64,000 nucleotides of DNA from Thermoguttaceae bacterium (lineage in GTDB: Bacteria; Planctomycetota; Planctomycetia; Pirellulales; Thermoguttaceae), in the NCBI GenBank assembly GCA_049509515.1, contig JBEKZV010000011.1, forward strand, positions 63,737 to 127,736, written 5' to 3'. Below are positions 5,549 through 56,027 of this stretch, piece by piece. Below the pieces are notes generated by a model. That model saw only the letters and a list, made by a program, of their open reading frames with translations. It did not search any database and was not told the DNA's origin. The stretch's first letter is position 1. Every line of letters starts with the position of its first letter. The translations under genes were made by a program, and so were the position numbers.

Positions 5549-5590
5549 CGGCTTCCTCCCAATCCTCGACGGAGGTTCCCGGCAGCGGGA

Positions 5591-15226: not shown

Positions 15227-15263
15227 GTGACGTTAGTTCCCTAGTTCCCTGAAGTCCACGGCC

Positions 15264-15305: not shown

Positions 15306-15326
15306 GGGGAGTCGCGACAACACCAA

Positions 15327-17444: not shown

Positions 17445-17456
17445 TATTGCCAGCGG

Positions 17457-17861: not shown

Positions 17862-18112
17862 GCCATCCCCACGGGCTTGGGCAACTCGCCCTGTGGCGGG
17901 CGGACGAAGGTCTCGTCGTCGATGGAGCCGGCCAGACTAAAGTAGTCGGGCGACCAGCCGGGCTGGTCGGGCGCTCCTGGCGAGGGCCCAGTCGCTTTCG
18001 GCTGAACGACCAGCACCACCTCGAAATCCGCCTCGGGCGCTCCCAGCGGAATGCTGACGTGCAGCACGCCGTCCTTCCCGGTGCGCTGGGTCACTCGCAA
18101 GGTCTGCCCCAT
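17858..18112 (-). CDS. vapB: VapB-family antitoxin partner of VapC
   Basis: The 117-aa ORF is 17858..18211. The likely start is ATG at 18112 (MGQTLRVTQRTGKDGVLHVSIPLG...), which has a GGAGG Shine-Dalgarno upstream. C-terminal motif WSPDYFSLAGSIDDETFVRPPQGELP, typical of a cyanobacterial/planctomycete VapB family. Overlap with vapC indicates translational coupling. Confidence 0.6.
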   Translation of the reverse strand: MGQTLRVTQRTGKDGVLHVSIPLGAPEADFEVVLVVQPKATGPSPGAPDQPGWSPDYFSLAGSIDDETFVRPPQGELPKPVGMA

Positions 18113-18313
18113 AGCGCCTCCCTCGTTGGAATGAGCTTGCTCCGCCCGTTCTGCCGCTGTATCCTGCGTTGCCGCCTTCCCTTTCTCCCCATCCGCTTCG
18201 GTTCGGGACACCCGCCCGCGACACCCTATAGTCTATGCCCAGGGGCAGAGAGCCGCAAGGCGGGTCGCACCTTTGTTTCCGGGAGCACAAAACCTTCAAG
18301 GCGGGCGGGCTAT

Positions 18314-19720: not shown

Positions 19721-19721
19721 G

Positions 19722-40351: not shown

Positions 40352-41007
40352 CCGCTGTCATCGTCCGGCAAGGCTTGAAAACCAAGATTAGCGAGTATCG
40401 GCCGCACGTCCCTACCGGGAATCTCGTACTCGTTTCCTACGGGCGTCGGCAACGAGTTGTGGCGGGCGGGCGGCGAGTTGCTCTGCCACCGGCTCCCGGA
40501 CCGTGCCGGCGATTCCCGGCTTCTTCGACCTCAAGAGCCTTACCGGGCGGCTTGTCCACATGCCGGCCTTTGAAGACGAGGCGGCTGCCCACCCAGCTTG
40601 CTATGTAGCACACGGCTTATCTTCCAAGTAATCATGCCGGCGAAACCAGAATAGGCGTTACATTCGGCAGTTTATGGCAAGACAGTTGGCGACAAACGTG
40701 ACGTTCTTGTCGAAAAATCTGACCCTTTCGGGTCAATCTTGGCGACTAAACGAATAAAATGCTACAAGCCGAGCAAGACACATAACGGTTGCAAACCCTA
40801 CCCAATGATTCCCCGACAAGTCCCGACCGGCCCCAGTCGAAAGACGTGACTGTTGCAGTAACGCCTTTAAGGCGAGGCCGGCCGGAAACACCCCCCAAGC
40901 GATCCCGCCAGTAGAAACGAAGGGAAACAGCAGATCGATCTCGGTGGAGGATCCCGCCGAGAGCATCCATGTCCACCCGACGGGGTGGCCCACAAGGAGG
41001 TGGCACT

Positions 41008-42516
41008 GTGCGCACGATCAGGCACACCAGAGGCGAGTTTCGGGGCTGTCGCGCGGGTCTAGTCGTGCTGGGGGTTTTGTGCCTCGGGCTCGGCGCGTGC
41101 CGGTCGTCCAGCAACGACTGCCCGCCGCGGCGGATGGAACCCCGATTGGACCCCGGTTGGCCCAGGGCCAATAACTTCTTCACGCAGGTCTCGTACCAGG
41201 AGGTCCGCGCGGCGCTGCCGAAGATCGCGGGGGCGGAGTACGTCAACGACGCCGAGATCTGCGCCACATGCCACGAGACGTACACGAAGTCGTTTGCCGA
41301 CAACGTACACCGCCGCGACAACTGCGAGTCGTGCCACGGCCCGGCCAGCCGCCACGTCGAGACCCGCGGCAAGGAGCCGGGGCTGATCTTCAGCTTCAAG
41401 CAGGGGGATCCCTACGTGCGGGCGGAGGCCTGCCTGCGGTGTCATGAGGAGAACCAGTGCACCCAGGGGGCCCAGTGGCGGACCTCGAAGCACGCGCACT
41501 GCGGCGTGACTTGCGTCGATTGCCACCGCGGCCACTACAACGTGCCTTACGGCACCCCGGCCACCACCGCGCCCGGCGAGGCCCGCGGTCCGCTGGGCGA
41601 GATAACCCAGTTCGCCTCGTTGCGGCTTGCCGCCGAGCCTGCCCCGCCCAAGACGGAGCTGCCTTCGCTCCGCGGGTCGTCGCGGCACCTCGGCGCGGTG
41701 GCGCCGAACGTCTGCTACCGTTGCCACTGCGACATGCAGGACATGCAGCAGATCGCGGGACCGCACCAGGTTTGCGGGCCCAACGGATTCAATTGCACCA
41801 CGTGCCATGATCCGCACGGCGTGCTGAAGGAGTCCTCCAGGAAGGACCTCTGTCTGTGCTGCCACGCGCAGCATGCGCCCACGATGGCCTGGCACTCCTC
41901 GATCCACGCCAATAACGGAGTGGCGTGTACCGACTGCCACAATCCGCACCCGCGGGCCTGCGTCCCGCGGTTCGTCGAGATCGACCACTACCAGGTGAAG
42001 CGGCCCAAGCGGATGCCGATGTCCGTCCAGGAGCCCGAGGCGTGCTACAAATGCCATGCGAAGATGTACGGCCTGAACGCGATGCCTTCGCACCATCCGA
42101 TCAAGGAAGGGAAGATGGTCTGCTCGGACTGCCACGACCCGCACGGCCAGTACCTCGGCAACCTCAAGGACGAAACGATCAACCTGGTGTGCTACCGCTG
42201 CCATGCCGAGAAGCAAGGGCCGTTCGCCTACGAGCACCCGCCGGTGACCGAGAACTGCTGCATCTGCCACGAGCCGCACGGGGCCGTGGCCAAGGACTTG
42301 TTGCGGCAGCCGGTGACCTTCCTGTGCATGCGGTGCCACCCCGGCCACGCCAACAACTCGCATGCCAACATCCTCGTCGGTACGAAAAGCGGCGCCGTTA
42401 CCACCAGCGCCGCGCAATACCAGAAGGGCTTCTACACCGACTGCACCGCCTGCCACGCCGACATCCACGGCAGCAACAGCGCGTCGGTCAGCGGCCACGG
42501 AACCTTAACGCGTTAA
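41008..42516 (+). CDS. Multiheme c-type cytochrome lipoprotein (~14 CxxCH motifs)
   Basis: Listed as an ORF from ATG 40969. GTG at 41008 has a perfect AGGAGG 7 nt upstream and gives a lipoprotein signal ...AGLVVLGVLCLGLGAC. Heme motifs: CATCH, CESCH, CLRCH, CVDCH, CYRCH, CTTCH, CLCCH, CTDCH, CYKCH, CSDCH, CYRCH, CICH, CMRCH, CTACH. Confidence 0.85.
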   Translation: MRTIRHTRGEFRGCRAGLVVLGVLCLGLGACRSSSNDCPPRRMEPRLDPGWPRANNFFTQVSYQEVRAALPKIAGAEYVNDAEICATCHETYTKSFADNVHRRDNCESCHGPASRHVETRGKEPGLIFSFKQGDPYVRAEACLRCHEENQCTQGAQWRTSKHAHCGVTCVDCHRGHYNVPYGTPATTAPGEARGPLGEITQFASLRLAAEPAPPKTELPSLRGSSRHLGAVAPNVCYRCHCDMQDMQQIAGPHQVCGPNGFNCTTCHDPHGVLKESSRKDLCLCCHAQHAPTMAWHSSIHANNGVACTDCHNPHPRACVPRFVEIDHYQVKRPKRMPMSVQEPEACYKCHAKMYGLNAMPSHHPIKEGKMVCSDCHDPHGQYLGNLKDETINLVCYRCHAEKQGPFAYEHPPVTENCCICHEPHGAVAKDLLRQPVTFLCMRCHPGHANNSHANILVGTKSGAVTTSAAQYQKGFYTDCTACHADIHGSNSASVSGHGTLTR

Positions 42517-42589
42517 CCGAGGTTTTACCGCCCGCGGGCGCGCCGACCCGCGGGCTTCTTGATCACCGTTCGCGGCAGGGGGGCTGCTC

Positions 42590-44911
42590 ATGTTTCGGAA
42601 ATACGTGCTCTGCGCCTTCGGGGCGATCACCTGTGCCACGGCTCTGGCCGTGGCGGCCCGCGCCCAGGACGTTCAGGACCCTTACCTGGCCGGGCCGAGC
42701 TGCGGCGTCGTGTCGGACCTGGATGTCCGCATGGGCTACTGGGCGTCGCACACCACGGGCAGCCCGGTCAAGGTCGGCGAGTACCAGGACTTGGCGTCCT
42801 CCCTGTTCTACGACGTGGACATGCTCCGCAGCAACGGTACCCGCACGTTGGACTTCACCGCCAACGGCACCGACCCCGACGCCAACAACGTGTACCTGCA
42901 CTACTTCGGCCCGGGGCTGGCGGGCCAGGGGCTGGAGGCCAACGTCAACTACCAGAGCTTCATACACAACCTCGGCCACGACAATCTGGGCCAGTTCACC
43001 GACTCGGGCGGAACCAACAACAACACCGACAACGGCGCCACCGGCGCCAACATCCGCGGCCAGCAGTTCCTCAGGCAGGACTTCAACCCCGGCGAGGACT
43101 ACGCCATTCGCGTGCAGGAGTTCAAGGCGAACTTCAAGGCCGAGTTGACCCCGGACCTCCGGATCCGGTTGGACGTGTGGGGCATCGACAAGGAGGGGAC
43201 CCGCCAGGTCAACTCGATGCAGGAGTGCTACCCGCACACGTACGCCACCATCGACCCCACCACCACCAGCCTGCCGGCGCAGAGTGCCGGCGGAACCAAC
43301 CACTGCCACATCCTCAGCCAGTCGCAGCACATCGATTGGCAAACCACCGAGGTCAAGCCGGTCGTCGAATGGAACCTCGGCCCGGTCGTCATCGAGTATT
43401 CCCGGCCGATGCGGACCTTCACCCAGGACGATCAGACCGTCTACCGCTTCTATGACTTCGAAGGCGTGACGCCGGGTTCCAAGCCGTACAGCCTCGTCCC
43501 CGACAACACCACGCAGATCGACCAGTTCAAGCTGAATGTGCTGGTGAACGAGGACAACCGCTTCTACGGATTCTTCTACACCGGCAACACCCGCAGCGAG
43601 GGAGAAGCGGTGCTGCCGAGCGGGGAACTGGCCGACGAGGTCAACAACCGCCGCATGACTGGCGCCGACATCCGCTGGACCAACACGACCATCGACAACG
43701 TGACGATCACCCCCTATGCCCGCTACGTGAAGGAAACCAACCTGTTCAGCGAAGAGGCGGATACCACCTTCCCCATCAACTACGAGCGCTCGCAAGCGGG
43801 CGTGCGAACCCTCTGGCGGCCTTTCGGCGGCGGTTTCGGGCTGGGAGGGCTGGCCATCAAGGCCGAGTACGAGTACGGCGATCTGCACCGCGCCAACCTG
43901 GACTTCCCGCAAGACGGCATCGGCCCCGCGGGTGGCCCCGGCCCCAGCATCGCCGCCGGTGAGATCGACGAAGAGCACACCCGTAGCAACATCTTCTCCA
44001 TCGGTCCTACGGTGCGGTGGTCGCCGCAGTTCGACACGTACCTCAAGTACAAGTATTACGATACCCAGGACGCGTTGTACGCCGTGGCTTACCACAACCC
44101 CAGCAGCCGCGACAGCCCCCCCTACTCCTACGCCGGCCTGTCGACCAACAGCGCCCTGCCCGAGTACGACAACATCATCGAGCTCGGCGGCACCTGGCTC
44201 CCCAACGACCGCTTCATGCTCAACGGCTGGATCGGCTTCGACATGCAGAGCCAGAGCGAAGGCCAGTTGGTGATCAACAATACCTTCGCGCCCAGCGCGT
44301 CGCGGACGGAAGCCCTGACTTCCAAGACCGACAACTACCCGTGCGGCCTGAACGGCTCCTACCGGGCCGGCGACAAGTGGACGCTCAACTTCGGCGCCGC
44401 CTATTTCACCAACTGGATCGATCAAGACGTGACCTTCAGCCCCGGCTCGGATCACGGCTTCGGCGGCACGGTCACTCCGCCTTTCCCCGCCGGACCCAAC
44501 CAGTACGGGGCGCTGCTGAACCGCCTCGCCTATGGGGGCCGGGCCGGGGTGTTCAACCTGGGCGCCACCTATCGCCTCAGCCCCAGGCTGCGATTCCAAG
44601 CCCAAGGCGAGTATGTCCACGGCATCGACTCCGCGTACCAACTCTCCGGCGATCCCAACTTCCCGCAGACCAACGCGGCGACCGCGAGCATCCCCGGCAT
44701 CTTCCGCGACGACGTGGTCATTACGCGGGTCTCCGCGGGGATCGATTACCTGGTCTCGAAGCGGTGTACCGCTTACTTCCGCTACGTGCTGTTCGACTAC
44801 CAGGACAGCGCAGACAAGACGCAGTTGGCCGCCTCCACACTGCCGGTCGACGGCCTGCCGCTCTCCGGCACGTCCAACCTGTTCCTCACCGGACTGAACG
44901 CGACGTTCTAG
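42590..44911 (+). CDS. Large outer-membrane beta-barrel protein (773 aa), candidate porin partner of the upstream multiheme cytochrome
   Basis: Signal peptide MFRKYVLCAFGAITCATALAVAARAQD. Aromatic-rich body with alternating hydrophobic residues and many Y/F/W-G-N motifs. C-terminus ...LFLTGLNATF (terminal Phe). No CxxCH motifs. Starts 73 nt after the cytochrome gene. Confidence 0.7.
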   Translation: MFRKYVLCAFGAITCATALAVAARAQDVQDPYLAGPSCGVVSDLDVRMGYWASHTTGSPVKVGEYQDLASSLFYDVDMLRSNGTRTLDFTANGTDPDANNVYLHYFGPGLAGQGLEANVNYQSFIHNLGHDNLGQFTDSGGTNNNTDNGATGANIRGQQFLRQDFNPGEDYAIRVQEFKANFKAELTPDLRIRLDVWGIDKEGTRQVNSMQECYPHTYATIDPTTTSLPAQSAGGTNHCHILSQSQHIDWQTTEVKPVVEWNLGPVVIEYSRPMRTFTQDDQTVYRFYDFEGVTPGSKPYSLVPDNTTQIDQFKLNVLVNEDNRFYGFFYTGNTRSEGEAVLPSGELADEVNNRRMTGADIRWTNTTIDNVTITPYARYVKETNLFSEEADTTFPINYERSQAGVRTLWRPFGGGFGLGGLAIKAEYEYGDLHRANLDFPQDGIGPAGGPGPSIAAGEIDEEHTRSNIFSIGPTVRWSPQFDTYLKYKYYDTQDALYAVAYHNPSSRDSPPYSYAGLSTNSALPEYDNIIELGGTWLPNDRFMLNGWIGFDMQSQSEGQLVINNTFAPSASRTEALTSKTDNYPCGLNGSYRAGDKWTLNFGAAYFTNWIDQDVTFSPGSDHGFGGTVTPPFPAGPNQYGALLNRLAYGGRAGVFNLGATYRLSPRLRFQAQGEYVHGIDSAYQLSGDPNFPQTNAATASIPGIFRDDVVITRVSAGIDYLVSKRCTAYFRYVLFDYQDSADKTQLAASTLPVDGLPLSGTSNLFLTGLNATF

Positions 44912-46383
44912 GGCGTGATCCCGATTGCTTGCGACGGCTTCTGCGCCGAAGTTCGCTCGGCGGGCAGTGGCGGGAGGTCGACCTTCGGCTCGGCCAGGCC
45001 CAGCTCGCGGCAGAGGGCGGAGATGCGATCGGCCACGGCGTGGTTGAGCGTCGTGGCATAGTGCATGTTGTGCACGTCGTTGCCCGTGCGCAGAAAATCC
45101 AGGTCGTGCTCCACGTTCTCCAGCTCGGTGCGGAGCGCGGCCGCGCGGCCGGCGGCGAGATGGGCCGCGGGGACCGCCGCGCGGATCCGCGCCAGGGCGG
45201 AGGCCAGCTCGGGCAGCGACGCGCGGAGCTGGGCGTGGTAGACCTGGAACTGCTTCACGGCGGCCGCGTCGTGGCACATCGAGCAAACGGCCGGCGAGCC
45301 TCGCACGAGCACCGTCCCGGTGGACGAGACCTCTTTCTGCAGATGGCAGGTGCGGCATTCGAGGCGGACGACCGCCATGCCGCCGGACTGGGCGGCGATG
45401 GTCCGGCCGCCGCTTCCCCGGAGCATCTGCACCTGCTCCCCGTGGTGGTTCGGGTGGCAGGATTGGCAATTCGCCGCGGCGTGTTCCAGCTTGCGGCGGT
45501 CCAGCGAGTGCTCGATGGGATTGTGGCAGTGCAGGCAGTCGATCTTGTGCTCGGTGACGTGCTTGGCGTGCATGAACAGCGGGTCGTGGATGCGTTCCAG
45601 GTCGCCCGGGCGGTTGTGGCAGGAGAGGCAGCGCTCGGGGGCCACCTGGCCGTCGCCGCGGATCACGTCGCCGTGGCAGTTGGCGCAGTCGACGCCCTTC
45701 TCGTACGCCAGGTCGTGGGTGAAGGTGACGCCGCCGCCCAGGTCGAACTTCGTGTCGGGGATCTGGTGGCAGTGGGTGCAGGCGCCGAGGCCCTCGTTGA
45801 GCGGCTCGTCCTTGAAGTGGCACAGGAAGCAGGTCGAGGTGGTCACGGTCATGTGGCTGCCCTGGACGATCTGGCTGTGGCAGCTCGTACAGCGGAGCTG
45901 CTTGCCGCGGCGGGTTTCCTTGAGGTGCGGCGTGTGATCGAAGGGCACGCCGTGGAAATCGACCCGCCCGACCAGGAGCCGCGTCTCGTGGCACCCCGAC
46001 CGCAGGCAGCTTGCGTCGGGGATTTCCGCGGTGGGGCGGGTGCCCGCGCTCTGCGTCACGTACTTGGCCAGTTGCACCAGGCCGAGCATCTTGCCGCGGA
46101 GTTTCCCGCCGAGGCCCGGCGGGAAATGGCACTCGATGCAACTCACGTCCTTGTGCGTCGAGGCCTGCCACGACTTGTAGTAGGGCTCCATGATGTGGCA
46201 GCTATTGCAGAACTCAGGGCGCGAGGTGTACCAGCCGGCGCAGGCCACCAGCAGCACCACCAACAGCGCCAGCGAGCCGGCCAGCGCCGCTCCGCGGGCA
46301 GCCAGGCGGCGGAGCGTCCGCCAGGCCGGGCTGGATCGGGCGGCGGCCAGGAACCGGACCAACCGTTGCCATGTTCCGCGCAC
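44908..46383 (-). CDS. Membrane-anchored multiheme c-type cytochrome (~12 hemes, NapC/NirT/NrfH-like N-terminus; ImcH-like architecture)
   Basis: GTG start at 46383. N-terminal TM anchor AALAGSLALLVVLLVACAGWY, then CNSCH, CIECH, CLRSGCH, CTSCH, CFLCH, CTHCH, CANCH, CLSCH, CLHCH, CQSCH, CRTCH, CSMCH. Its stop overlaps the barrel gene's stop at ctag 44908-44911. The start lies 1 nt from the stop of the upstream cytochrome gene. Confidence 0.8.
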   Translation of the reverse strand: MRGTWQRLVRFLAAARSSPAWRTLRRLAARGAALAGSLALLVVLLVACAGWYTSRPEFCNSCHIMEPYYKSWQASTHKDVSCIECHFPPGLGGKLRGKMLGLVQLAKYVTQSAGTRPTAEIPDASCLRSGCHETRLLVGRVDFHGVPFDHTPHLKETRRGKQLRCTSCHSQIVQGSHMTVTTSTCFLCHFKDEPLNEGLGACTHCHQIPDTKFDLGGGVTFTHDLAYEKGVDCANCHGDVIRGDGQVAPERCLSCHNRPGDLERIHDPLFMHAKHVTEHKIDCLHCHNPIEHSLDRRKLEHAAANCQSCHPNHHGEQVQMLRGSGGRTIAAQSGGMAVVRLECRTCHLQKEVSSTGTVLVRGSPAVCSMCHDAAAVKQFQVYHAQLRASLPELASALARIRAAVPAAHLAAGRAAALRTELENVEHDLDFLRTGNDVHNMHYATTLNHAVADRISALCRELGLAEPKVDLPPLPAERTSAQKPSQAIGITP

Positions 46384-46384
46384 G

Positions 46385-48733
46385 TCAGCCCCCCAACCCG
46401 GCGTAGATCATGCCCGCCAACAGCGCCAGCCCCACGCCCAGGGCCCCGTAGCCCAGGGCCGTCACGAGCCACAGCGTCGCGCGGCCCGGGGCGGTCGTCC
46501 GCAGCCCCTCCAATTGCCCCTCGCGGCGGAGCCGCTCGAAGAGCACCGGGCGCGTGTCCTGGAACTCCTCTTCGCTCACCAGGCCGGTCAGTACCGAGCG
46601 GTCCACGGGGAAGACGTCCGGGCGGAGGTGCGTGTTGAAGAAGTGTACGGCGAACACGAAACCGGTGGCCAGCAGGGCCTGCGTGGAGTGGATCACCTGG
46701 GCCACGTTCACGCCGATGCCCGGCAGAAAACGGCAGAAGAAGTTGGGGAACCACAGCACCAGCCCGGTCGAGCCGATGATCACGATGTCGGCGGCCGCGC
46801 CCCAGAAATCGAACTTCTCCCAGTAACCCCAGCGATCGAAGGTCGGCTTGGGCCCCAGGCCGACGAACCACCGCAGCATGGCACAGACATCTTTGACGTC
46901 TTGGAGATTGGGGATGGGAGAATCCGGGCCGAACACCAGCGCGGTCCTCCGCGTGCCGCGGCGGCGGCCCTGCACGTAGAGGCACACCAGCCGCACCAGG
47001 TACGCCGTGAAACAGCCGAAAGTGACCAGGGCGAAGACCCGGTGCCAGAAACTGGTCGAGGCGAAGCCGCCCATGGCCTGTGCCACTCGCTGGGCCCACT
47101 CCATGGAGCTGTACTTCATCGGCAGGCCGGTCAAGGCGAGCCCCAGGAAGGCCAGCAGCATGACGGCGTGTCCGATGCGGTGGAAGCGGGGAAAACGGAC
47201 GTAGGCCGGCCCCAACGGCTGGAGGCGCCGCGGGCGGCCGCCGTGGAACACGTCCACCAAGCCCCGCACGAACCACAGGACCGAGTGCACCCCGAACAGC
47301 CCGAACGTCGTCAACAACACCGTCAGCAGGACCACGTAGACGCCATGCACGATCGGGCTGCGCTGGGGATCGGTATAGTCCGTGTGCGGATCGAAGGCCA
47401 GGAAATTGCCCGAGGCGTTGGCATGGCACTGCCGGCAGGTCTCGGCGCGATTTTCCGCCGACAGCCGCGAGCCGGCCTCGGAGGCCGGCAGGATGTCGTG
47501 GGCCCCGTGGCAGTCCGAGCACTTGGCGGCCGGGGCGTACCCCAACTCCGTCAGGTGGCCGTGGGCGCTCAGGGCGTACTGGCTCTCGAGGTCGGCGTGA
47601 CAGCTTCCGCAGCGGGTTGGCGACTGCAGCCGGAACGCCGCAGAAGTCGGCTGTGCCAAATCGTGCCCCACGTGGCAGGAGGTGCAAGTAGGTCTCTGGT
47701 TAGCCAGTTCGCCCGGCGCGTGCCGGGCACCCGGGGCTTCCCGGGCGGCCGGGCCGCCCGGCGCGCCGCCCCGGCCGTGTACGCTGGCCGCCAGCCACTC
47801 TTCGATAAACCGGTGGCACTTGCCGCAGGTCGCAGCGACCCGCGTGCTGCTGAGCGTGGACCGCTTATCGGGAGCGCGGTAGACCCCGTGGGCCCCGTGG
47901 CAGTCCGCGCAGGCCGGCACCACCAACAGGCCCATCTTGTGCAGCCCCCGCCCGTGCACGCTCTGCATGTACGTTTCGAGGTGCTCCGCATGGCACTCGC
48001 CGCAGACCTTCAATTGGTGGTCGAGGAACACGGGCGACGCCGGGTCGCGGACCCCCAGCAATTGATGTGCGACCGGGCCGTGGCACTGGTCGCACGCCAG
48101 CGGGGTGCCCCGGCCGCGGTCGTCCTTGGCCCCCGCCTTGTCATGCACCCCCTTGACCAGGTCGATCGCCTGCTCTTTGTGACAGGCCGCGCAGAACTTC
48201 TTCACCTCGGCCGGCTTGGAGCGGAAGCCGTCCTCGGCGGCGTGCGGCGTCTGCTTGATGTCCTCCGCCCGGACATTCCCGCCGTGGCAGTCGTGGCAGT
48301 TCACGCCGGCCAGCCAATGCACGTCGCGTTTCAGCCCTTCGCGGGAGATGAACAGCCGCTTCTTGTCGCCCTCCCACAGGTCCGGCTCGCCGTGGCAGAC
48401 GATGCAGTTATTCTTGTCCGGGGGGACGTGGGAGCCTTTTGGCGGCGGCAGGACGATCGCTGCGGGGGCTGCGGCGGCCGGGGCGGTTACGGCGGGAGCC
48501 GGAGTGGCGACCGGAGCCGAGACGGCGCCGGGAGCCGAAGTGGCGATGGGCGCCGGGGGAGCATGCGGGCCGCCCGGTTGGAGAACCGGGGTGGATGCCG
48601 GCGACGGCTGGGCATCGGCCTCGGCCGCCTGGGCCACATAGCCGGGGACCGCTGCCTGCCAGGCAGGCACGGCGCTACCCGCTACCGCCAGGAGGATCGC
48701 TGCCGGCAGCAACCACGCGAAAAACCGTTTCAT
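46385..48733 (-). CDS. Fusion of an ~11-heme c-type cytochrome domain with a multi-TM b-type cytochrome domain (CbcL-like architecture)
   Basis: Listed as an ORF to 48805. Start at ATG 48733 (MKRFFAWLLPAAILLAVAGSAVPA, signal). Heme motifs: CIVCH, CHDCH, CAACH, CDQCH, CGECH, CADCH, CGKCH, CTSCH, CGSCH, CSDCH, CRQCH. The C-terminal ~300 aa has at least 6 TM helices with conserved His residues (RFHRIGHAVM, VIHSTQALL, AVHFFNTHLRP), similar to HydC/FdnI-type diheme cytochrome b. Confidence 0.85.
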   Translation of the reverse strand: MKRFFAWLLPAAILLAVAGSAVPAWQAAVPGYVAQAAEADAQPSPASTPVLQPGGPHAPPAPIATSAPGAVSAPVATPAPAVTAPAAAAPAAIVLPPPKGSHVPPDKNNCIVCHGEPDLWEGDKKRLFISREGLKRDVHWLAGVNCHDCHGGNVRAEDIKQTPHAAEDGFRSKPAEVKKFCAACHKEQAIDLVKGVHDKAGAKDDRGRGTPLACDQCHGPVAHQLLGVRDPASPVFLDHQLKVCGECHAEHLETYMQSVHGRGLHKMGLLVVPACADCHGAHGVYRAPDKRSTLSSTRVAATCGKCHRFIEEWLAASVHGRGGAPGGPAAREAPGARHAPGELANQRPTCTSCHVGHDLAQPTSAAFRLQSPTRCGSCHADLESQYALSAHGHLTELGYAPAAKCSDCHGAHDILPASEAGSRLSAENRAETCRQCHANASGNFLAFDPHTDYTDPQRSPIVHGVYVVLLTVLLTTFGLFGVHSVLWFVRGLVDVFHGGRPRRLQPLGPAYVRFPRFHRIGHAVMLLAFLGLALTGLPMKYSSMEWAQRVAQAMGGFASTSFWHRVFALVTFGCFTAYLVRLVCLYVQGRRRGTRRTALVFGPDSPIPNLQDVKDVCAMLRWFVGLGPKPTFDRWGYWEKFDFWGAAADIVIIGSTGLVLWFPNFFCRFLPGIGVNVAQVIHSTQALLATGFVFAVHFFNTHLRPDVFPVDRSVLTGLVSEEEFQDTRPVLFERLRREGQLEGLRTTAPGRATLWLVTALGYGALGVGLALLAGMIYAGLGG

Positions 48734-48744
48734 GCGTCGCTGGC

Positions 48745-49281
48745 CTACTGCTTGTCGTAAGCCGGGTGCGGCTTGTGCTGCTGGTCGATGTGGCAGCGGA
48801 CGCAAACGTTCTGCGGCGCGATCTTATAGATCGATCCCCGCACTTCCTTGTCCTGGTCCGGCGAGAGGACTTTCACGTTTTCGTATTTCTTGGCGATGAC
48901 GGCGTGCTGGCTGCCCGGGCCGTGGCAGGCCTCGCACGTGGTGCCGGCGAGGTTGGGGGTCGAGGTCGCATCCTTGAAACCGGTGGCGGCCCCGTAGCCC
49001 GTGGAGTGGCAAATCAGGCACTCGGCGGTGCCGCGATACTTGGCCGGCACGCTCTCGAATGCCTCTTTGGCGTGCTTGGTCTTCTTCCATGCCATGTAGG
49101 CCTTCAGGTGGCAGGCGGCGCACTGCTTGGTTCCCGTGTAGGTCTGGTCCGCCGGGGGATGGACCTCCGTGACCGGTTCCGCCGGCGGCTGCGACCGCGC
49201 CGGCAGCCCCCACAGCATCCAAATTGCAGCCAACGTCCCTGCCCCAAGCAGTGCCAACCAATCACACCTCGGCCTGACCAT
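48745..49281 (-). CDS. Periplasmic tetraheme c-type cytochrome
   Basis: 178 aa with a signal peptide. Heme motifs CAACH, CLICH, CEACH, CVRCH. It is the first gene of the minus-strand cytochrome operon; 11 nt separate it from the next gene. Confidence 0.8.
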   Translation of the reverse strand: MVRPRCDWLALLGAGTLAAIWMLWGLPARSQPPAEPVTEVHPPADQTYTGTKQCAACHLKAYMAWKKTKHAKEAFESVPAKYRGTAECLICHSTGYGAATGFKDATSTPNLAGTTCEACHGPGSQHAVIAKKYENVKVLSPDQDKEVRGSIYKIAPQNVCVRCHIDQQHKPHPAYDKQ

Positions 49282-49712
49282 GTTCTTTCTCCTGACTACA
49301 CGGGAAGGTATGGCCTCGGCTTCGACGGCACACCCGCTGTTACGCCGAATCGAGGTACTCGAATCAGTTTAATTTAGTCTGGCGTAGCAATCAATAAGTG
49401 GGTCTCATAATTTTTCGTTTTGAGGCCGTGGTTGACGGGATTGTTGAAACACGTTTTGATTTAAGAACTTATATCGTTTGGAAAGCCTCCGCAAGCAAAC
49501 GAAGCGGCCGATAGATTATCATGCTACTTGTCTTTATGGCTAGACTAGGAATGATTTCCAAACACCCCATGCTAGACAACCACCCCGTCAGGTGGTTCAT
49601 AACCATGCTCAGTTGGCTTTTCCGTCTGAACCCCTTTGACAAGACGCATATGAACCTGGTATAGACATTCCATGAGAGACGTGCCTGCGGTTCACTTCAA
49701 GGAGGCCGGTCG
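49282..49712. promoter_or_regulatory. AT-rich divergent promoter/regulatory region between the two cytochrome operons
   Basis: About 430 bp at roughly 40-45% GC within a ~68% GC context. Contains a sigma70-like ttgaca-17 nt-gtatag candidate, three catgcta repeats, a ctagactag element, and AAGGAGG 7 nt before the Rieske ATG. Confidence 0.5.
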
Positions 49713-50177
49713 ATGACCGAATCCGTTGCCCGGCGCAATTGGTTGCTGCGGTGCCTGGAGGCCGGGATCGCCATGACCGTGGCAGCGATCTTCTACCCGG
49801 TGGCCCGGTTCCTTCGGCCCAGGACGGCGACACGGTCGGGCGGACTGGAGATCGTCGCTCCATACCGCATGGATCAGCTCAAGCCGGACGCCGAAGGTCG
49901 CTGGCCGCCACCGTTCGACTTCGGCGGCAAGCCGTGCCTGCTGATCCTGGTGGACGGCCAACCCAGGGCGCTGAATGCCGTGTGTACGCACCTGGACTGC
50001 ACGGTCGAGTATCGCCCCACCCCGGGCGATATCTTCTGCAACTGCCACAACGGCCTGTACGACCTGAACGGCCGCAACATTTCCGGCCCGCCGCCGCGGC
50101 CGCTGGAACTCTACAAGGCCGTCAAGGGCAAGGGGAATCCCGGCCAGGAGGAGATCCTTGTCTCGCGCATCGTCTGA
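49713..50177 (+). CDS. Rieske [2Fe-2S] subunit of a cytochrome bc-type complex
   Basis: TAT-type N-terminus [19 protein letters not shown]. Cluster ligands CTHLDC...CNCHNGLYD (CxH...CxxH). Confidence 0.9.
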
Positions 50178-51531
50178 AATCGCGTCGGGGAACCGGGGCT
50201 GGCTGGGGCGCCTCGGGGAGTTCTTCTACCAGCGGTTGGGCCTGGACAGCGCCGCGGCCCTGGCCGCCAAGAAACACGTCCCCGTCCACCGCACCACTTT
50301 CTTCTATTTTCTCGGCGGGATGGCGCTATTCTTGTTCGGCGTCCAGGTGGCCACCGGCATCCTGCTCTCGCTCTACTACAAGCCTTCGCCCGACCAGGCC
50401 TTCGAGAGCGTCCGCGCGATCATGACCGAAGTGGACTTCGGCTGGCTCTTCCGCTCGATCCACTCCTGGAGCGCCAACCTGCTGATCGGGATCCTGTTTC
50501 TGCACCTGTTGACGACGTACATGATGCGGGCGTACCGGCGGCCCCGTGAACTCACCTGGATGACCGGCGTCGTCCTGCTGGGCGTCTTCCTGGCCTTCGG
50601 CTTCAGCGGCTACCTGCTGCCGTGGAACCAGCTTTCCTTCTTCGCCACCCGGGTGGGCACGGCCATCGCCGGCGCGGTGCCCGGCATCGGCAAGTACGCC
50701 TTGCTCATGGCCCGGGGGGGAGAAGAAATCACCGGCGACACCTTGGCCCGCTTCTATGCCCTGCACGTCGTGATCCTGCCGCTGGCGACAATCGGCCTTA
50801 TCGGGCTGCACCTGTTCCTGGTGCAGAAGCACGAGATCAGCATCCCGGAGGGAGCGATCCGCGAGCACGGCGGTGTGGACAAGGTTCCCCACATGCCCTT
50901 CGTGCCGCATTTCCTGCTCCACGACATGGTCGGCTGGTATCTGGCGCTGGGAATCCTGGCCGCCCTGGCCGCCCTGTTCCCGTGGGAGCTCGGGCAGAAG
51001 GCCGACCCCTTCGGCTCCGCCCCGGCGGGAATCAAGCCGGAGTGGTACTTCCTGTTCATGTTCCAGGCGCTCAAGCAACTCCCCGCCAACCTCTGGGGGA
51101 TCGAATGGCTGGAGGGGGACATGGTCGGGGTGCTGTTCTTCGGGTTCTGCGGCGCGGTGGTATTCTTAGTGCCATACCTGGACGCGGACGTCACGCGGGA
51201 GCGATCCCGCCGCCTTCTGACCTTGTTGACGGCCCTGCTCGCGGCATTCCTTGCGGCGGTGGTCTTCTGGTTCCTGTGCAATGCGGCCGGCGCGCTCGTG
51301 GTGTACCGGTTCACCGATCCGTCGCAAGCGCGAGACCTCGACCGGGAAGCATCGGTGGCCTGGTGGCTGCAATACGTGGCCTACCCGGCGTGTTGCGGCG
51401 CGGCGATGATCCTCATCGCCCTGGCGACGTTCGGACGCCCCCGCCGGCAGCCGCGGTTGAACGTCAACCTCATGGCCGCCTTGGCCGTGTTGTTCTTCAT
51501 CGTCATGACCGCCTGGGGGCTGGCCAAATGA
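50158..51531 (+). CDS. Cytochrome b subunit of a bc/b6f-type complex (fused b6 plus subunit-IV-like, 457 aa)
   Basis: TTG start at 50158 with AGGAGGAG upstream; it overlaps the Rieske gene by 20 nt. Cytochrome-b signatures: [22 protein letters not shown], His ligands in [14 protein letters not shown] and [12 protein letters not shown], and [13 protein letters not shown]. The stop overlaps the next gene's start (ATGA). Confidence 0.9.
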
Positions 51532-52901
51532 GAACGATCCGAGCGTTGTCCCTGGCGATCATGCTTGCGGCGGCGTCCGCAGCCGCGGCGGCGGAGCCCA
51601 AGGTCCAGGCCGGCCAGGCCCCGCCGGGACCGAACAACTGCATCCTCTGCCACAGTAACAAGGACCTGTGGGAGGGCGAGCAAGCGAAATTGCTCGTCAC
51701 CGAGGCCGATCTGGCCGGCGACATCCATTGGCAGAGCGGACTGCGCTGCCAGGACTGCCACGGCGGCAACCCCCGGGCGGAGGACATCAAGCAGGCGCCA
51801 CACGCCGCCGAGGACGGGTTCCGCAAGGTTGGGTCGCCCAAAGACGTTCCCGAGTTCTGCGGGAAGTGCCATGCCGACATCGAGTACATGCGCCGCTACC
51901 GCCCCTCGCCGCGGACCGACCAGCTTGCCGAATACTGGACCAGTGACCACGGCCGGCAGCTCAAGACCGCCGGCGATTTGAAGGTGGCCACGTGCATCTC
52001 CTGCCACGACCGGCCGCACGGGTCCGGCGCCGAGCGGCACCCGCACGGGATACGGCCCGTCAGCGACCCGGCCTCCTTCGTCTATCGCACCCGCGTGGCC
52101 AAGACCTGCGCCACCTGCCACGCGGACAAGAAGCTGATGGCCGGCCGGCAGTATCACGGCCAGCCCCTGCCGTGCAACCAGTACGAGCAGTGGAAGGAGA
52201 GCGTCCACGGCAAGGCCATGATGGAGAAAGGCGACCTCAGCGCTCCGACCTGCAACAACTGCCACGGGAACCACGGGGCGGTCCCCCCGCAGGTCGACAG
52301 CGTGGCCAACGCCTGCGGCGCCTGCCACGGCAAAGTGGCCAAGCTGTTTGCCGAGACCCGCATGAGGCACAAGTTCGAGTTGGTGGGCCTGCCGGGATGC
52401 GCGACCTGCCACGGCAGCCACGAGATCCGCCAACCCACCGATGCGATGCTGGGCATGCAGACCGGGGCCGTCTGCGCCCGCTGCCACGAGCAAGGCAAGT
52501 TCGGGGCCACGCTGGCCGGGGCGGCGACCGCCAGGAAGCTCCGCGCCGGCCTCGAACGGCTCAAGCGTGGCATCGGCAAGGCGCAGGACACCCTCAGCGA
52601 GGCGGAGCAACTGGGCATGGAGGTCAGTCAGCCGCAATTCACCCTCCGCAAGGCCTCCGACGCCCTGACCAACGCCCGCTCCCTGATCCACGCCTTCCAG
52701 CCCGACCCGGTCGAAAAGGCCCTGGCTACCGGCCAAGAAGTCGTCGAGGAGGTCCAGGAGCAGGGCGACCATGCCCTCCAGGAGCACACCGCGCGGCGGA
52801 TCTGGCTGGCGGCCTCCCTGGCGCCGATCCTGCTGGTGATTCTCTTGCTGCTGCTCTACATCCGCAGCCTGCCGGCGCCGACGGACGGCGCGGACAGTTG
52901 A
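51528..52901 (+). CDS. Nonaheme c-type cytochrome with a C-terminal TM anchor (the c-type subunit of the bc complex)
   Basis: True start ATG 51528 ([22 protein letters not shown], signal), inside the spurious 759-aa ORF 50622..52901. Heme motifs CILCH, CQDCH, CGKCH, CISCH, CATCH, CNNCH, CGACH, CATCH, CARCH. C-terminal anchor [21 protein letters not shown]. The N-terminal ~90 aa are paralogous to the N-terminus of the 46385..48733 protein. Confidence 0.85.
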
Positions 52902-55040: not shown

Positions 55041-56027
55041 GTGGGAATGGTTCAAGCACTGCTGGTGATCGGCGCGGTCCTGTCGGGCCCGCTGCCGGGG
55101 AGTAACGGCACGATCCGCGGCACCGTCGTGAACCGGTCAGCCACGAGGCCCGTGCCGTGCCAGGCCACCGTGGTCCTGAGGATTGAATCGGGCGGCCAGT
55201 TCGTCCCGCTACGCCAGTTGGAAAGCGATTCGCAGGGACGGTTCCGCTTCGACCGATTGCCGGTCGGGGCCATTTACCGGTACTTGGTTGGGGCCAACCG
55301 GGACGAGGTGCACTACCCCGGGCCGCGAATCGTCCTGACGGACGGGCGGCCTGAGGCCGAGGTCGAGTTGGGCGTCCGCGACGCGGTTGCCCGGCCCAAC
55401 CCCCTCCTGATTCGCAGCCTGGAAATTGTGATCGTGCCGGAGCCCGGCGCGCTTCGGGTGTCCGAGTCCCTGCGCATCGAGAACCCTTCTTCCACGTGTT
55501 ACGTGGGCGAGCCGCCCCCGGGAGGCGGCACCCCGGTAACGCTTGCCCTGGGCATCCCTGCCGACTTCGAGCGCACGACGTTCGAGAAGGAGTTCTACGG
55601 GCGGCGGTTCGCGGTGGCTGACGGCAAGGTGGTAACAAGCCTTCCGTGGCCGCCCGGCCGGCGGGAACTCCGCTATACGTATGTGCTCCGCAACGACCAT
55701 GCCTACCGGTGCTGGGAGCGGCCGCTTGACCTGCCGTGCTCCCACGTGCGGGTCCGCGTCCGCACGTCCAAACCCAACGACGTGCGGTGTAATCTGCCTT
55801 GGCTGCCCGCCGAATGTGACGGCGAGATCCTTTTCCAATCCGACGATCCGATCCTGCCGGCCGGGCACGTCCTGCGCGTCGAATTGGGCCGCCTGCCGCT
55901 CGGCTGGATGGACTATGCCAGGCCCGCCGCCCTCCTGAGCCTGATCGGGCTGATCGCCGCCACGAGCTGCGTGCTGGTCCGACGACGACACACGCACCCC
56001 AAACCCGTTCGCGGCTCCAAGCCATAG
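55041..56027 (+). CDS. Membrane-anchored protein with an N-terminal carboxypeptidase-regulatory-like (transthyretin-like) domain
   Basis: 328 aa. Signal or anchor, then GTIRGTVVNRSATRPVPCQATVVL...DSQGRFRFDRLPVGAIYRY. C-terminal TM helix LLSLIGLIAATSCVLV. Starts 11 nt after ccmF. Confidence 0.5.
   Translation: MGMVQALLVIGAVLSGPLPGSNGTIRGTVVNRSATRPVPCQATVVLRIESGGQFVPLRQLESDSQGRFRFDRLPVGAIYRYLVGANRDEVHYPGPRIVLTDGRPEAEVELGVRDAVARPNPLLIRSLEIVIVPEPGALRVSESLRIENPSSTCYVGEPPPGGGTPVTLALGIPADFERTTFEKEFYGRRFAVADGKVVTSLPWPPGRRELRYTYVLRNDHAYRCWERPLDLPCSHVRVRVRTSKPNDVRCNLPWLPAECDGEILFQSDDPILPAGHVLRVELGRLPLGWMDYARPAALLSLIGLIAATSCVLVRRRHTHPKPVRGSKP

What the first reader, a model, noticed from the sequence alone, without database searches (positions are those of the whole stretch)
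44908..49281. Operon of inner-membrane quinol-oxidase-like multiheme cytochromes with ImcH-like and CbcL-like architectures plus a tetraheme carrier
Three minus-strand genes lie 1-11 nt apart. The first is a periplasmic tetraheme cytochrome. The second is an 11-heme c-type domain fused to a HydC/FdnI-like diheme-b membrane domain, which is the architecture of Geobacter CbcL. The third is a TM-anchored NapC/NirT-type cytochrome with ~12 hemes, the architecture of Geobacter ImcH or CymA. Together with the adjacent porin-cytochrome pair, this covers every compartment of an extracellular electron-transfer chain: quinol pool, periplasm, outer membrane.
Basis: partly seen in the sequence, partly recalled or inferred. 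Interest (0 to 1): 0.8.

Follow-up and report, generated by a model that had tools for sequence, protein, structure and literature searches.

The report
Planctomycete Mtr-like electron conduit, inner-membrane half
These three genes encode haem-rich proteins that most likely carry respiratory electrons from the inner membrane of a peat planctomycete to a neighbouring outer-membrane conduit, a new variant of the known Mtr/Mto type of mineral respiration rather than a new kind of system.

Summary
Three minus-strand genes lie 11 and 1 nt apart. They encode a 4-haem c554-like cytochrome, an 11-haem domain fused to an FdnI-type dihaem-b membrane domain, and a single-helix NrfH-type cytochrome with 12 haem motifs (11 CXXCH plus one invariant CX4CH).

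- The fused protein fits the published CbcL/MtoC/MtrH family. That survey already lists a planctomycete protein with the same motif and helix spacing.
- The third protein is not ImcH-like. It has one helix rather than three, no CX3CH motif, and 12 haems. It belongs to a large uncharacterised family.
- True ImcH-type genes sit next to CbcL-like genes in 11 of 20 loci from other lineages, and in none of 60 Pirellulales-type loci. The 12-haem protein therefore looks like a positional replacement.

The neighbours support an extracellular electron-transfer role. The barrel model best matches MtrB (E 3.8e-21), and the 14-haem protein passes the DmsE/MtrA family cut-off. The ~14 kb locus also holds a Rieske/cytochrome b complex, whose 9-haem subunit is a paralogue of the fused protein's haem domain, and a CcmF-type lyase. 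It recurs in many Planctomycetota genomes assembled from metagenomes. No reductase gene lies in the window. The direction of electron flow is unresolved.

The parts
48745..49281 (-). Four-haem c554-like periplasmic cytochrome (178 aa), first gene of the trio
   Evidence: 4 CXXCH. Pfam PF13435 Cytochrome_C554, 51.8 bits against a cut-off of 20.8. Matches PDB cytochrome c554 1bvb, E 1.1e-11, and weakly MtrA 6r2q_A. N-terminal hydrophobic segment at residues 8-26. Present in 29 of 33 related loci that have enough flanking sequence.
46385..48733 (-). CbcL/MtoC/MtrH-like fusion (782 aa): signal peptide, Pro/Ala-rich linker, 11-haem c domain, six-helix FdnI-type dihaem-b domain
   Evidence: 11 CXXCH. 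PF01292, 31.0 bits against a cut-off of 30.1. A profile of 21 homologues hits FdnI 1kqf_C, with H522/H564/H682/H697 aligned to FdnI H18/H57/H155/H169. Six hydrophobic helices with a positive-inside charge pattern. Motif and helix spacing equal to OHB84720.1, which is listed in the family.
44908..46383 (-). NrfH-type, single-helix, 12-haem inner-membrane cytochrome (491 aa), here called napC12; probable quinol dehydrogenase
   Evidence: 11 CXXCH plus a CX4CH, all invariant, and 12 further invariant His. PF03264, 40.9 bits against 24.1. Residues 31-99 match NrfH 2j7a_C, with the CNSCHIM motif and K98 aligned. Residues 162-273 match the ActA subunit of alternative complex III. One helix at 31-49. 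Present in 25 of 33 loci.
42590..44911 (+). MtrB/PioB-type outer-membrane beta-barrel (773 aa), convergent with the trio
   Evidence: AlphaFold2 model has pLDDT 77 and pTM 0.70 and is an all-beta barrel. The best PDB match is MtrB 6r2q_B, E 3.8e-21, TM 0.62/0.72; the next match has E 2.6e-9. The N-terminal part matches the NCBIfam GSU2204 family. 5 of 36 homologues hit PF11854, and one is named MtrB/PioB by NCBI. It has a signal peptide and a C-terminal Phe.
40969..42516 (+). MtrA/DmsE/OmcK-family 14-haem cytochrome with a lipoprotein signal (515 aa)
   Evidence: 14 CXXCH. TIGR03508 DmsE family, 231.7 bits against a cut-off of 192.2. GSU2203 family, 279 bits against 325. The lipobox LGLGAC is conserved as LASC/FASC/AVSC in homologues.
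49282..49712 (.). AT-rich divergent intergenic region between the trio and the Rieske operon (probable promoter and regulatory region)
   Evidence: Read directly from the sequence. One weak sigma-70-like match lies on the minus strand at 49542-49515, no more than shuffled sequence gives.
49713..50177 (+). Rieske iron-sulfur subunit
   Evidence: PF00355, 38.7 bits. b6f-type PetC models are the best NCBIfam hits. In the same locus in 18 of 33 cases.
50158..51531 (+). Cytochrome b6 fused to subunit IV
   Evidence: PF00033, 172.7 bits, plus PF00032. NF002990 cytochrome b6, 214.6 bits.
51528..52901 (+). 9-haem cytochrome c with a C-terminal anchor, third subunit of the Rieske/b complex; paralogue of the haem domain of the fused protein
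   Evidence: 9 CXXCH. 34% identity over 322 aa to the 782-aa protein, E 9e-48. C-terminal hydrophobic helix.
53039..55030 (+). CcmF/NrfE-family haem lyase
   Evidence: PF16327 plus PF01578. TIGR00353, 341.9 bits, below its cut-off. Within range in 12 of 33 loci.

Best explanation
The trio is the inner-membrane and periplasmic half of a conserved planctomycete Mtr/Mto-type extracellular electron-transfer locus (about 40.9-55.0 kb in the window).

Shown here:
1. The 491-aa protein is anchored by one helix. It keeps the NrfH-type quinol-site signature (CXXCHXM with Met65, and Lys98) and continues as a 12-haem chain with enough invariant histidines for bis-His ligation.
2. The 782-aa protein joins an FdnI-type four-histidine, two-haem-b transmembrane wire to an 11-haem periplasmic domain.
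3. A small four-haem c554-like cytochrome is encoded with them.
4. Next door lie a 14-haem MtrA/DmsE-family lipoprotein and an MtrB-fold barrel.
5. A Rieske/cytochrome b complex lies on the other side, and its 9-haem subunit is a paralogue of the 11-haem domain.

Inferred:
- Menaquinol is oxidised by up to three alternative modules: the NrfH-type protein on the periplasmic face, the FdnI-type protein across the membrane, and the Rieske/b complex by a Q cycle.
- Electrons then pass through the haem chains and the four-haem carrier to the MtrA-like protein threaded through the barrel.
- From there they reach insoluble or humic acceptors outside the cell.
- The parallel quinol modules would let the cell match its energy yield to the acceptor's redox potential, as ImcH, CbcL and CbcBA do in Geobacter.
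- Every haem appears six-coordinate, so these proteins are wires, not enzymes.
For: Anatomy and haem counts.

NrfH-like N-terminus with aligned Met and Lys, and an ActA-like middle section.

FdnI histidines and six-helix topology with the haem domain outside.

Family context in the literature: CbcL/MtoC/MtrH proteins have 3-23 haems and six helices, often sit beside mtrAB/mtoAB, and include planctomycete entries (PMC6295460).

Outer-membrane half: DmsE family above cut-off; barrel model best matches MtrB at E 3.8e-21; the GSU2204 family is described as an MtrB/PioB barrel (PMC13188914); GSU2203 (OmcK) and GSU2204 were up-regulated with iron oxides in Geobacter (PMC4070692).

Synteny in 33 Planctomycetota loci with at least 8 kb on both sides:
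- four-haem gene in 29
- 12-haem gene in 25
- MtrAB-like pair in 20
- Rieske/b complex in 18
- all of these in 12

The 9-haem and 11-haem domains are paralogues. ImcH-type and napC12 genes are mutually exclusive beside CbcL-like genes. No terminal reductase lies in the window.
Against: - Everything rests on sequence. There is no expression or physiology for this organism or any close relative, and I found no paper showing extracellular electron transfer in non-anammox Planctomycetota.
- No MtrC/OmcA-like surface cytochrome gene is in the locus.
- 13 of 33 loci lack the MtrAB-like pair within the sequence held.
- The direction of electron flow cannot be read from sequence. The same family serves iron oxidisers as MtoC.
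- Homology to reference CbcL or MtoC could not be scored directly, because no reference sequence was available.
- The structure model of the 12-haem protein was poor (pLDDT 61.7).
- Only 64 kb of the genome was seen, so partner enzymes elsewhere cannot be excluded.
Confidence: 0.62

Rival explanations
1. The hardware is the same but runs in reverse. The locus takes electrons from extracellular Fe(II), Mn(II), reduced humics or cathodes, as the MtoAB-MtoD-MtoC/CymA system is proposed to do. The fused protein and/or the NrfH-type protein reduce menaquinone, and the Rieske/b complex serves uphill or downhill branches.
For: MtoC of iron oxidisers belongs to the same family. The 2018 survey found no feature that separates quinol oxidases from quinone reductases (PMC6295460). 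The locus has an MtrA-like and an MtrB-like gene but no MtrC-like gene, as in mtoAB and pioAB. The spacing of the four membrane-proximal haem motifs (25/30/28 residues) equals that of MtoC Galf_2006 and MtrH Rfer_4073. It differs from Geobacter CbcL, which has 28/43/28. A bc-type complex is adjacent.
Against: Many carriers are MAGs from anoxic or organic-rich settings: peat, an anaerobic membrane bioreactor and a sulfidic spring. There, heterotrophic reduction of Fe(III) or humics is the simpler reading. MtrH of the iron reducer Rhodoferax has the same motif spacing, so spacing does not decide direction. An FdnI-type quinone reductase working against the low menaquinone potential with Fe(II) as donor would be energetically demanding; this is my inference. 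No carbon-fixation or oxidase genes lie in the window.
Confidence: 0.2
2. The trio is a quinol-to-periplasm electron-delivery module for a soluble nitrogen or sulfur enzyme encoded elsewhere. Known models are NrfH with NrfA, and cM552/c554 with hydroxylamine oxidoreductase. On this reading the adjacency to the barrel pair is incidental.
For: The best named matches are the nitrite-reductase subunit NrfH for the N-terminus of the 12-haem protein (TIGR03153 E 7.8e-17; PDB 2j7a_C) and Nitrosomonas cytochrome c554 for the four-haem protein. The phylum is rich in octahaem enzymes (my knowledge). Only 64 kb of the genome is visible.
Against: No NrfA, HAO, Nap, Nar or Nir gene lies in the window. I did not screen the related loci for such enzyme genes; those loci were compared only against the nine proteins of this locus and, for the distant ones, scanned for haem motifs. 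All equivalog scores are far below cut-off: NrfH 61.6 against 134.2, and Cyt554 46.1 against 400. The conserved partners in the loci are the MtrAB-like pair (20 of 33) and the Rieske/b complex (18 of 33). A 12-haem chain is much longer than any known NrfH-type adaptor.
Confidence: 0.08
3. The three proteins are accessory electron carriers of the ordinary planctomycete respiratory chain, passing electrons between the Rieske/b complex and terminal oxidases, with no role outside the cell.
For: The Rieske/b operon is transcribed divergently from the trio and is syntenic in 18 of 33 loci. Its 9-haem subunit is a paralogue of the 11-haem domain. A haem lyase gene lies alongside.
Against: Two extra quinol-interacting modules are redundant for a simple bc-to-oxidase chain. 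The MtrAB-like pair is at least as often linked (20 of 33). Several loci carry the trio and the MtrAB-like pair without the bc genes: L023, L045 and L060. No oxidase genes are in the window.
Confidence: 0.08

Closest known systems
CbcL / MtoC / MtrH family of inner-membrane cytochromes (Geobacter GSU0274, Gallionella Galf_2006, Rhodoferax Rfer_4073)
   Same: Both have an N-terminal periplasmic multihaem c domain, six helices, an FdnI/HydC-type dihaem b, and frequent linkage to mtrAB/mtoAB. A planctomycete protein (OHB84720.1) with the same motif and helix spacing is already listed in the family.
   Different: This protein has 11 haems, against 9 in the named references. It has a long Pro/Ala-rich linker after the signal peptide. 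The spacing of the last four motifs follows MtoC/MtrH, not Geobacter CbcL. Its haem domain is a paralogue of the cytochrome subunit of the neighbouring Rieske/b complex. Identity to the reference proteins was not measured.
Rhodoferax ferrireducens cymA-cymA-mtrH-mtrABC cluster and the mtoAB-mtoD-mtoC/cymA clusters of Gallionella, Dechloromonas and Sideroxydans
   Same: One locus encodes a NapC/NirT-type and a CbcL-type quinol/quinone module, a small periplasmic cytochrome, an MtrA-type cytochrome and an MtrB-type barrel (PMC6295460).
   Different: - The NapC/NirT-type protein has 12 haems rather than 4.
- The carrier is a four-haem c554-like protein, whereas MtoD has one haem (the MtoD haem count is from my own knowledge, not from a call).
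- The MtrA-like protein has 14 haems and a lipobox.
- There is no MtrC.
- A Rieske/b complex and a CcmF-type lyase are part of the conserved locus.
- The host is Planctomycetota, not Proteobacteria.
ImcH (Geobacter GSU3259)
   Same: Both are inner-membrane multihaem cytochromes with a NapC/NirT-like region next to the membrane. Both are encoded beside a CbcL-like gene: ImcH-type in 11 of 20 distant loci, napC12 in the Pirellulales-type loci.
   Different: - One helix rather than three.
- The first motif is a canonical CXXCHXM rather than CX3CH.
- 12 haems rather than 6-10.
- Similarity is limited to about 85 residues (27-37% identity, E 1e-6 to 1e-9).
- A helical C-terminal region is present.
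NrfH / NapC / CymA quinol dehydrogenases
   Same: All have a single N-terminal helix and a PF03264 match. The first haem motif CXXCHXM and a lysine align with Met49 and Lys82 of Desulfovibrio NrfH (the role of these residues is from my knowledge of the NrfH structure).
   Different: It is three times as long, with 12 haems. The third motif is CX4CH. The NrfH equivalog score is far below cut-off. No NrfA partner is nearby. The residue aligned to the NrfH quinol-site aspartate is not conserved as Asp (inference).
Geobacter OmcK (GSU2203) / GSU2204 pair and Shewanella MtrA/MtrB
   Same: The best NCBIfam families for the neighbouring pair are GSU2203 and GSU2204. The barrel fold best matches MtrB. 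The Geobacter pair was induced by iron oxides.
   Different: There are 14 haems rather than 10. A lipoprotein signal is present. The barrel has only an XXXCH remnant of the family's CXXCH motif. The window protein itself does not hit Pfam MtrB_PioB.
Nitrosomonas cytochrome c554 (CycA)
   Same: Four haems, a Pfam Cytochrome_C554 match, and PDB 1bvb at E 1.1e-11.
   Different: It is shorter (178 aa against 211). The equivalog score is 46.1 against a cut-off of 400. No hydroxylamine oxidoreductase or cM552 gene context is present.

Membership tests
CbcL/MtoC/MtrH (782-aa protein) | N-terminal periplasmic domain with 3-23 CX2CH motifs | tested here: met
   11 CXXCH after a signal peptide. Related copies in the loci most often have 11 or 13 (35 and 15 of 61), with smaller counts in a few.
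CbcL/MtoC/MtrH (782-aa protein) | Six transmembrane helices in the C-terminal half | tested here: met
   Hydropathy peaks at 464-482, 520-538, 566-584, 643-661, 680-698 and 754-772, with Lys/Arg-rich alternate loops. This is a simple hydropathy scan, not a dedicated topology predictor.
CbcL/MtoC/MtrH (782-aa protein) | HydC/FdnI-like b-type domain with conserved haem-ligand histidines | tested here: met
   PF01292, 31.0 bits against a cut-off of 30.1. The profile hit to FdnI 1kqf_C aligns invariant H522, H564, H682 and H697 with H18, H57, H155 and H169.
CbcL/MtoC/MtrH (782-aa protein) | Sequence homology to reference members (reported range 28.6-100% identity) | tested here: inconclusive
   No reference sequence could be obtained. 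Indirect support: motif and helix positions match OHB84720.1, listed in Table S2 of PMC6295460. Full-length relatives at 33-38% identity occur in Gammaproteobacteria, Acidobacteriota and Verrucomicrobia.
CbcL/MtoC/MtrH (782-aa protein) | Quinol oxidase or quinone reductase activity feeding extracellular electron transfer | not testable with these tools
   Needs genetics or biochemistry.
ImcH (491-aa protein) | Three N-terminal transmembrane helices | tested here: not met
   One helix (31-49). The same scan finds three in the ImcH-type proteins of L076, L080, L082, L083 and L086; the others gave two or four peaks.
ImcH (491-aa protein) | [quoted passage not shown] | tested here: not met
   No CX3CH. 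The first motif is CNSCH. In total there are 11 CXXCH plus one CX4CH at the third position. Reference pattern from PMC6295460.
ImcH (491-aa protein) | Full-length similarity to ImcH-type proteins | tested here: not met
   BLASTP to ten ImcH-type proteins from the loci aligns mainly residues ~24-117. Two comparisons reach residue ~264 at 22-24% identity. E values are 1e-6 to 1e-9.
NapC/NirT/NrfH/CymA (491-aa protein) | Single N-terminal helix plus the NapC/NirT N-terminal haem region | tested here: met
   PF03264, 40.9 bits against a cut-off of 24.1, over residues 39-114. NrfH 2j7a_C matches residues 31-99.
NapC/NirT/NrfH/CymA (491-aa protein) | Small four-haem (or five-haem) protein of about 140-390 aa that passes the equivalog models | tested here: not met
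   12 haems in 491 aa. TIGR03153 NrfH scores 61.6 against 134.2, and TorC scores 30.3 against 455.
NapC/NirT/NrfH/CymA (491-aa protein) | Partner reductase gene adjacent (nrfA, nap, tor) | tested here: not met
   None in the window.
Cytochrome c554 (178-aa protein) | Four-haem c554 fold family | tested here: met
   PF13435, 51.8 bits against 20.8. PDB 1bvb, E 1.1e-11.
Cytochrome c554 (178-aa protein) | Orthology to Nitrosomonas CycA and a hydroxylamine oxidoreductase context | tested here: not met
   NF043010 scores 46.1 against a cut-off of 400. No HAO gene is in the window.
MtrAB/MtoAB-type porin-cytochrome pair (neighbours) | MtrA/DmsE-family periplasmic multihaem cytochrome | tested here: met
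   TIGR03508, 231.7 bits against a cut-off of 192.2. It has 14 haems and a lipobox, unlike MtrA.
MtrAB/MtoAB-type porin-cytochrome pair (neighbours) | MtrB/PioB-type large beta-barrel | tested here: met
   The model's best PDB match is MtrB 6r2q_B, E 3.8e-21, TM 0.62/0.72. Sequence-level Pfam PF11854 is hit by 5 of 36 homologues but not by the window protein.
MtrCAB (Shewanella type) | MtrC/OmcA-type surface decahaem lipoprotein encoded in the cluster | tested here: not met
   Only five frames in the window carry 4 or more CXXCH, and all are accounted for.

The most novel reading that the evidence does not exclude
Non-anammox Planctomycetota (Pirellulales, Thermoguttaceae) carry a self-contained respiratory 'gearbox' for extracellular acceptors. 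Three different quinol oxidoreductases are wired to one MtrAB-like conduit:
- a previously uncharacterised 12-haem NrfH-type family that replaces ImcH;
- an FdnI-type CbcL/MtoC homologue;
- a Rieske/b complex that carries a paralogous multihaem wire.

The conduit's barrel may itself bind a haem through a single-cysteine XXXCH motif. A dedicated CcmF-type lyase may mature the odd CX4CH and XXXCH sites. If so, a Q-cycle complex would feed extracellular electron transfer directly, which has not been shown in any organism.
Probability: 0.25. Interest if true: 0.72.

Novelty: new variant of a known kind. Interest (0 to 1): 0.5.

Why it matters
Planctomycetota are abundant in peat, soils and sediments, yet they are generally treated as aerobic or fermentative polymer degraders. 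A complete, widely conserved route from quinol to the outer membrane would make them candidate reducers or oxidisers of iron, manganese and humic substances, which affects carbon and metal cycling in peatlands.

The locus also offers natural comparisons for an open question in extracellular electron transfer: how inner-membrane cytochromes are matched to acceptor redox potential. Here an NrfH-type 12-haem protein stands where other phyla have ImcH. The same multihaem domain is attached either to an FdnI-type or to a Rieske/b-type quinol module.

Tried and rejected
- **Structure of the 12-haem protein.** AlphaFold2 with 33 homologues gave a poor model (pLDDT 61.7; the haem core was below 50). 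Foldseek against the PDB found nothing significant (best E 0.04, the C-terminal helices of NrfA and MccA). I draw no conclusion from it.
- **Solved structures.** A sequence search of the PDB found no structure of ImcH, CbcL or MtoC to compare with.
- **Reference sequences.** GSU0274, GSU3259, Galf_2006 and CymA could not be fetched.
- **Longer contig.** An attempt to recover the 127.7 kb NCBI contig around the locus returned only short metagenome contigs.
- **Promoters and terminators.** The scan gave counts close to shuffled sequence. It did not define the operon boundaries.
- **Literature.** Searches for this locus in Planctomycetota found only survey-level mentions of porin-cytochrome or CbcL hits.
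- **Small ORF.** A 47-aa ORF is called on some contigs in the intergenic region. I judged it spurious because it lies in the AT-rich stretch.
- **A catalytic enzyme?** I considered that the 12-haem protein might be one, given its CX4CH motif and NrfA-like helices. I rejected this for now, because 12 invariant non-motif histidines plus Met65 suffice to ligate every haem.

Full report
**What is there**

The window has about 66% GC. Its flanks carry typical planctomycete genes (PSD/PSCyt and DUF1552). The third gene of the finding is 100% identical to an NCBI protein from a Thermoguttaceae genome assembled from a metagenome (P0121). The barrel gene is identical to ABSG86_06245 of the same taxon.

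The three minus-strand ORFs are at 48745-49281, 46385-48733 and 44908-46383. They are separated by 11 and 1 nt. Independent gene callers give the same products on metagenome contigs.

Haem motif counts are 4, 11, and 11 plus one CX4CH. Of 306 long frames in the window, 299 have no CXXCH at all. The five with four or more are all cytochrome genes between 40.9 and 52.9 kb.

**The four-haem protein**

It matches Pfam Cytochrome_C554 well above cut-off. It also matches the Nitrosomonas c554 structure (E 1.1e-11) and, weakly, MtrA. It is far below the CycA equivalog cut-off (46.1 against 400). It has an N-terminal hydrophobic leader. I read it as a small periplasmic, or membrane-tethered, electron carrier.

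**The fused protein**

After a signal peptide and a Pro/Ala-rich linker come 11 CXXCH motifs, then six hydrophobic helices with alternating Lys/Arg-rich loops. That pattern places the haem c domain outside the membrane.

Pfam PF01292 is passed narrowly (31.0 against 30.1). A profile of 21 homologues hits E. coli FdnI. Invariant H522, H564, H682 and H697 fall on FdnI H18, H57, H155 and H169. From the published FdnI structure (my knowledge), these are the ligands of the two b haems, so a transmembrane two-haem wire is conserved.

The survey of Zhong and Shi (PMC6295460) defines a CbcL/MtoC/MtrH family by exactly these features. Its members have 3-23 haems, occur in 15 phyla and often sit beside mtrAB/mtoAB. 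Its Table S2 lists a protein from Planctomycetes bacterium RBG_16_64_12 whose motif and helix spacing coincide with this one. The last three motif intervals (25, 30, 28) equal those of MtoC of Gallionella and MtrH of Rhodoferax. They differ from Geobacter CbcL. I could not obtain reference sequences, so direct homology to them remains unscored.

**The 12-haem protein**

It has a single helix (31-49). Its N-terminus matches NapC/NirT and, best of all, NrfH. The first motif CNSCHIM and K98 align to the CXXCHXM motif and lysine of the Desulfovibrio NrfH structure. In that structure they form the quinol-side haem site (my knowledge).

Residues 162-273 resemble ActA, the five-haem subunit of alternative complex III. 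All 12 motifs, including CX4CH, are invariant in 33 homologues, as are 12 further histidines. That fits an all-six-coordinate wire.

It is not ImcH. GSU3259 has helices at 13-35, 45-67 and 100-122, and motifs at 132 (CX3CH), 156, 205, 311, 428, 448 and 486. Proteins with that exact pattern exist in my fetched loci from Gammaproteobacteria, Acidobacteriota, Verrucomicrobia and other Planctomycetota. There they sit directly next to the CbcL-like gene.

The 12-haem protein aligns to them almost entirely within residues ~24-117. Two comparisons extend to about residue 264 at 22-24% identity. ImcH-type genes occur in 11 of the 20 distant loci and in none of the 60 Pirellulales-type loci, while the 12-haem gene shows the opposite pattern. 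I read it as a positional and probably functional replacement for ImcH.

Its family is large. 369 cluster representatives score E 1e-30 or better. Some are longer forms with extra haems or other fusions. Members occur in Gemmatimonadota and in a cultured planctomycete, ZRK34.

**The neighbours**

- The 14-haem protein passes the DmsE/MtrA family cut-off and is close to the GSU2203 (OmcK) family.
- The 773-aa protein gave a confident barrel model (pLDDT 77). Its best PDB match is MtrB of the Shewanella Mtr complex (E 3.8e-21, TM 0.62/0.72), twelve orders of magnitude ahead of the next match.
- The N-terminal part of the barrel protein matches the GSU2204 family, which a 2026 review describes as an MtrB/PioB barrel.
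- GSU2203 and GSU2204 were induced by iron oxides in Geobacter.
- On the other side, transcribed divergently, lie a Rieske protein, a fused cytochrome b6/subunit IV and a 9-haem anchored cytochrome.
- The 9-haem protein is 34% identical over 322 residues to the haem domain of the fused protein (E 9e-48).
- A CcmF/NrfE-family lyase follows.

**Conservation**

A scan of one genome per species found 282 relatives of the fused protein; the best 80 loci were kept. Among 33 Planctomycetota loci with at least 8 kb on both sides:

| Component | Loci (of 33) |
|---|---|
| Four-haem gene | 29 |
| 12-haem gene | 25 |
| MtrAB-like pair | 20 |
| Rieske/b complex | 18 |
| All of the above | 12 |

**Mechanism**

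- Shown: the parts list, topology, ligand conservation and synteny.
- Inferred: menaquinol is oxidised by the NrfH-type protein at the outer face, by the FdnI-type protein across the membrane, and possibly by the Rieske/b complex. Electrons then run through the haem chains and the four-haem carrier to the MtrA-like protein inside the barrel, and out of the cell.
- Because an FdnI-type site normally lies on the cytoplasmic side, outward electron flow through it would consume membrane potential. That would suit low-potential acceptors, as proposed for CbcL. This is inference only.
- The reverse direction, as in Mto systems, cannot be excluded.

**Rivals**

A nitrogen-oxide module is unlikely. 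No reductase lies in the window, the equivalog scores fail, and the conserved partners are the barrel pair and the bc complex. I did not screen the related loci for reductase genes, and the rest of the genome is unseen. A purely internal respiratory role is weakened by loci that keep the trio and the barrel pair without the bc genes.

**Novelty**

The building blocks and the idea are known, and surveys have flagged CbcL or porin-cytochrome hits in Planctomycetota. I found no description of three things: this conserved locus, the 12-haem family, or its exchange with ImcH. I rate it a new variant of a known kind, of moderate interest.

Noticed in passing
window 42590-44911 (residues 236-240, TNHCH): The MtrB-like barrel has an invariant Cys-His pair (xxxCHVLSQxQHIDW) across 36 homologues. 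Two distant members (P0323, P0329) keep a full CXXCH, and the matching NCBIfam family is named 'CXXCH-containing (seleno)protein'. The barrel may bind a haem through a single cysteine.
   Followed up: partly
window 40969-42516 (N-terminus, Cys44): The 14-haem MtrA-like protein carries a lipobox (LGLGAC). It is conserved as LASC/FASC/AVSC in most complete homologues, so the protein is probably a lipoprotein, unlike Shewanella MtrA. Four homologues have 19 haems.
   Followed up: partly
window 53039-55030: A CcmF/NrfE-family haem lyase sits without other ccm genes next to the cytochrome genes. It lies within range in 12 of 33 related loci. It could be a dedicated lyase for the CX4CH motif of the 12-haem protein or the XXXCH site of the barrel. 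This was not tested.
   Followed up: no
L076, L078-L084, L086, L070, L073 (next to the match at about 10001): In Gammaproteobacteria, Acidobacteriota, Verrucomicrobia and other Planctomycetota, an ImcH-type gene lies directly beside an 11- to 19-haem CbcL-like gene. It has a CX3CH motif and, in most cases, three predicted helices. In the Acidobacteriota loci L078 and L079, a 10-haem MtrA-sized cytochrome gene lies a few kb upstream. The 2018 survey had reported no mtrAB next to imcH.
   Followed up: partly
P0433, P0411, P0441 (relatives of window 44908-46383): The 12-haem family includes forms with an N-terminal cyclic-nucleotide-binding domain (P0433). It also includes 1320-1440 aa proteins in which the homologous region is C-terminal.
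   Followed up: no
L034, L038, L042, L043, L045-L049, L055, L056, L059, L060, L075: Many Pirellulales-type loci carry two CbcL-like paralogues flanking the 12-haem gene. In the Verrucomicrobia and Eremiobacterota loci L068, L069, L071 and L077, an 11-haem and a 9-haem paralogue lie in tandem.
   Followed up: no
window 42530-42555: A perfect 9-bp GC hairpin (GCCCGCGGG...CCCGCGGGC) lies between the MtrA-like gene and the barrel gene, followed by a weak T tract. It may be an attenuator or an RNA-processing site.
   Followed up: no
window 49282-49712: This 431-nt intergenic region between the trio and the Rieske operon is markedly AT-rich in a 66% GC genome, as expected for a shared divergent control region.
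   Followed up: no
window 55041-56027: A 328-aa protein is encoded directly after the lyase gene. It has a weak carboxypeptidase-regulatory-like domain match, below the Pfam cut-off, and a hydrophobic stretch near its C-terminus. Its function is unknown.
   Followed up: no
window 3497-23000: Two RND efflux systems (AcrB-type pump, membrane-fusion protein and outer-membrane factor) are present. With them are a hybrid PAS histidine kinase and a phosphate-selective-type porin. None is obviously linked to the cytochrome locus.
   Followed up: no
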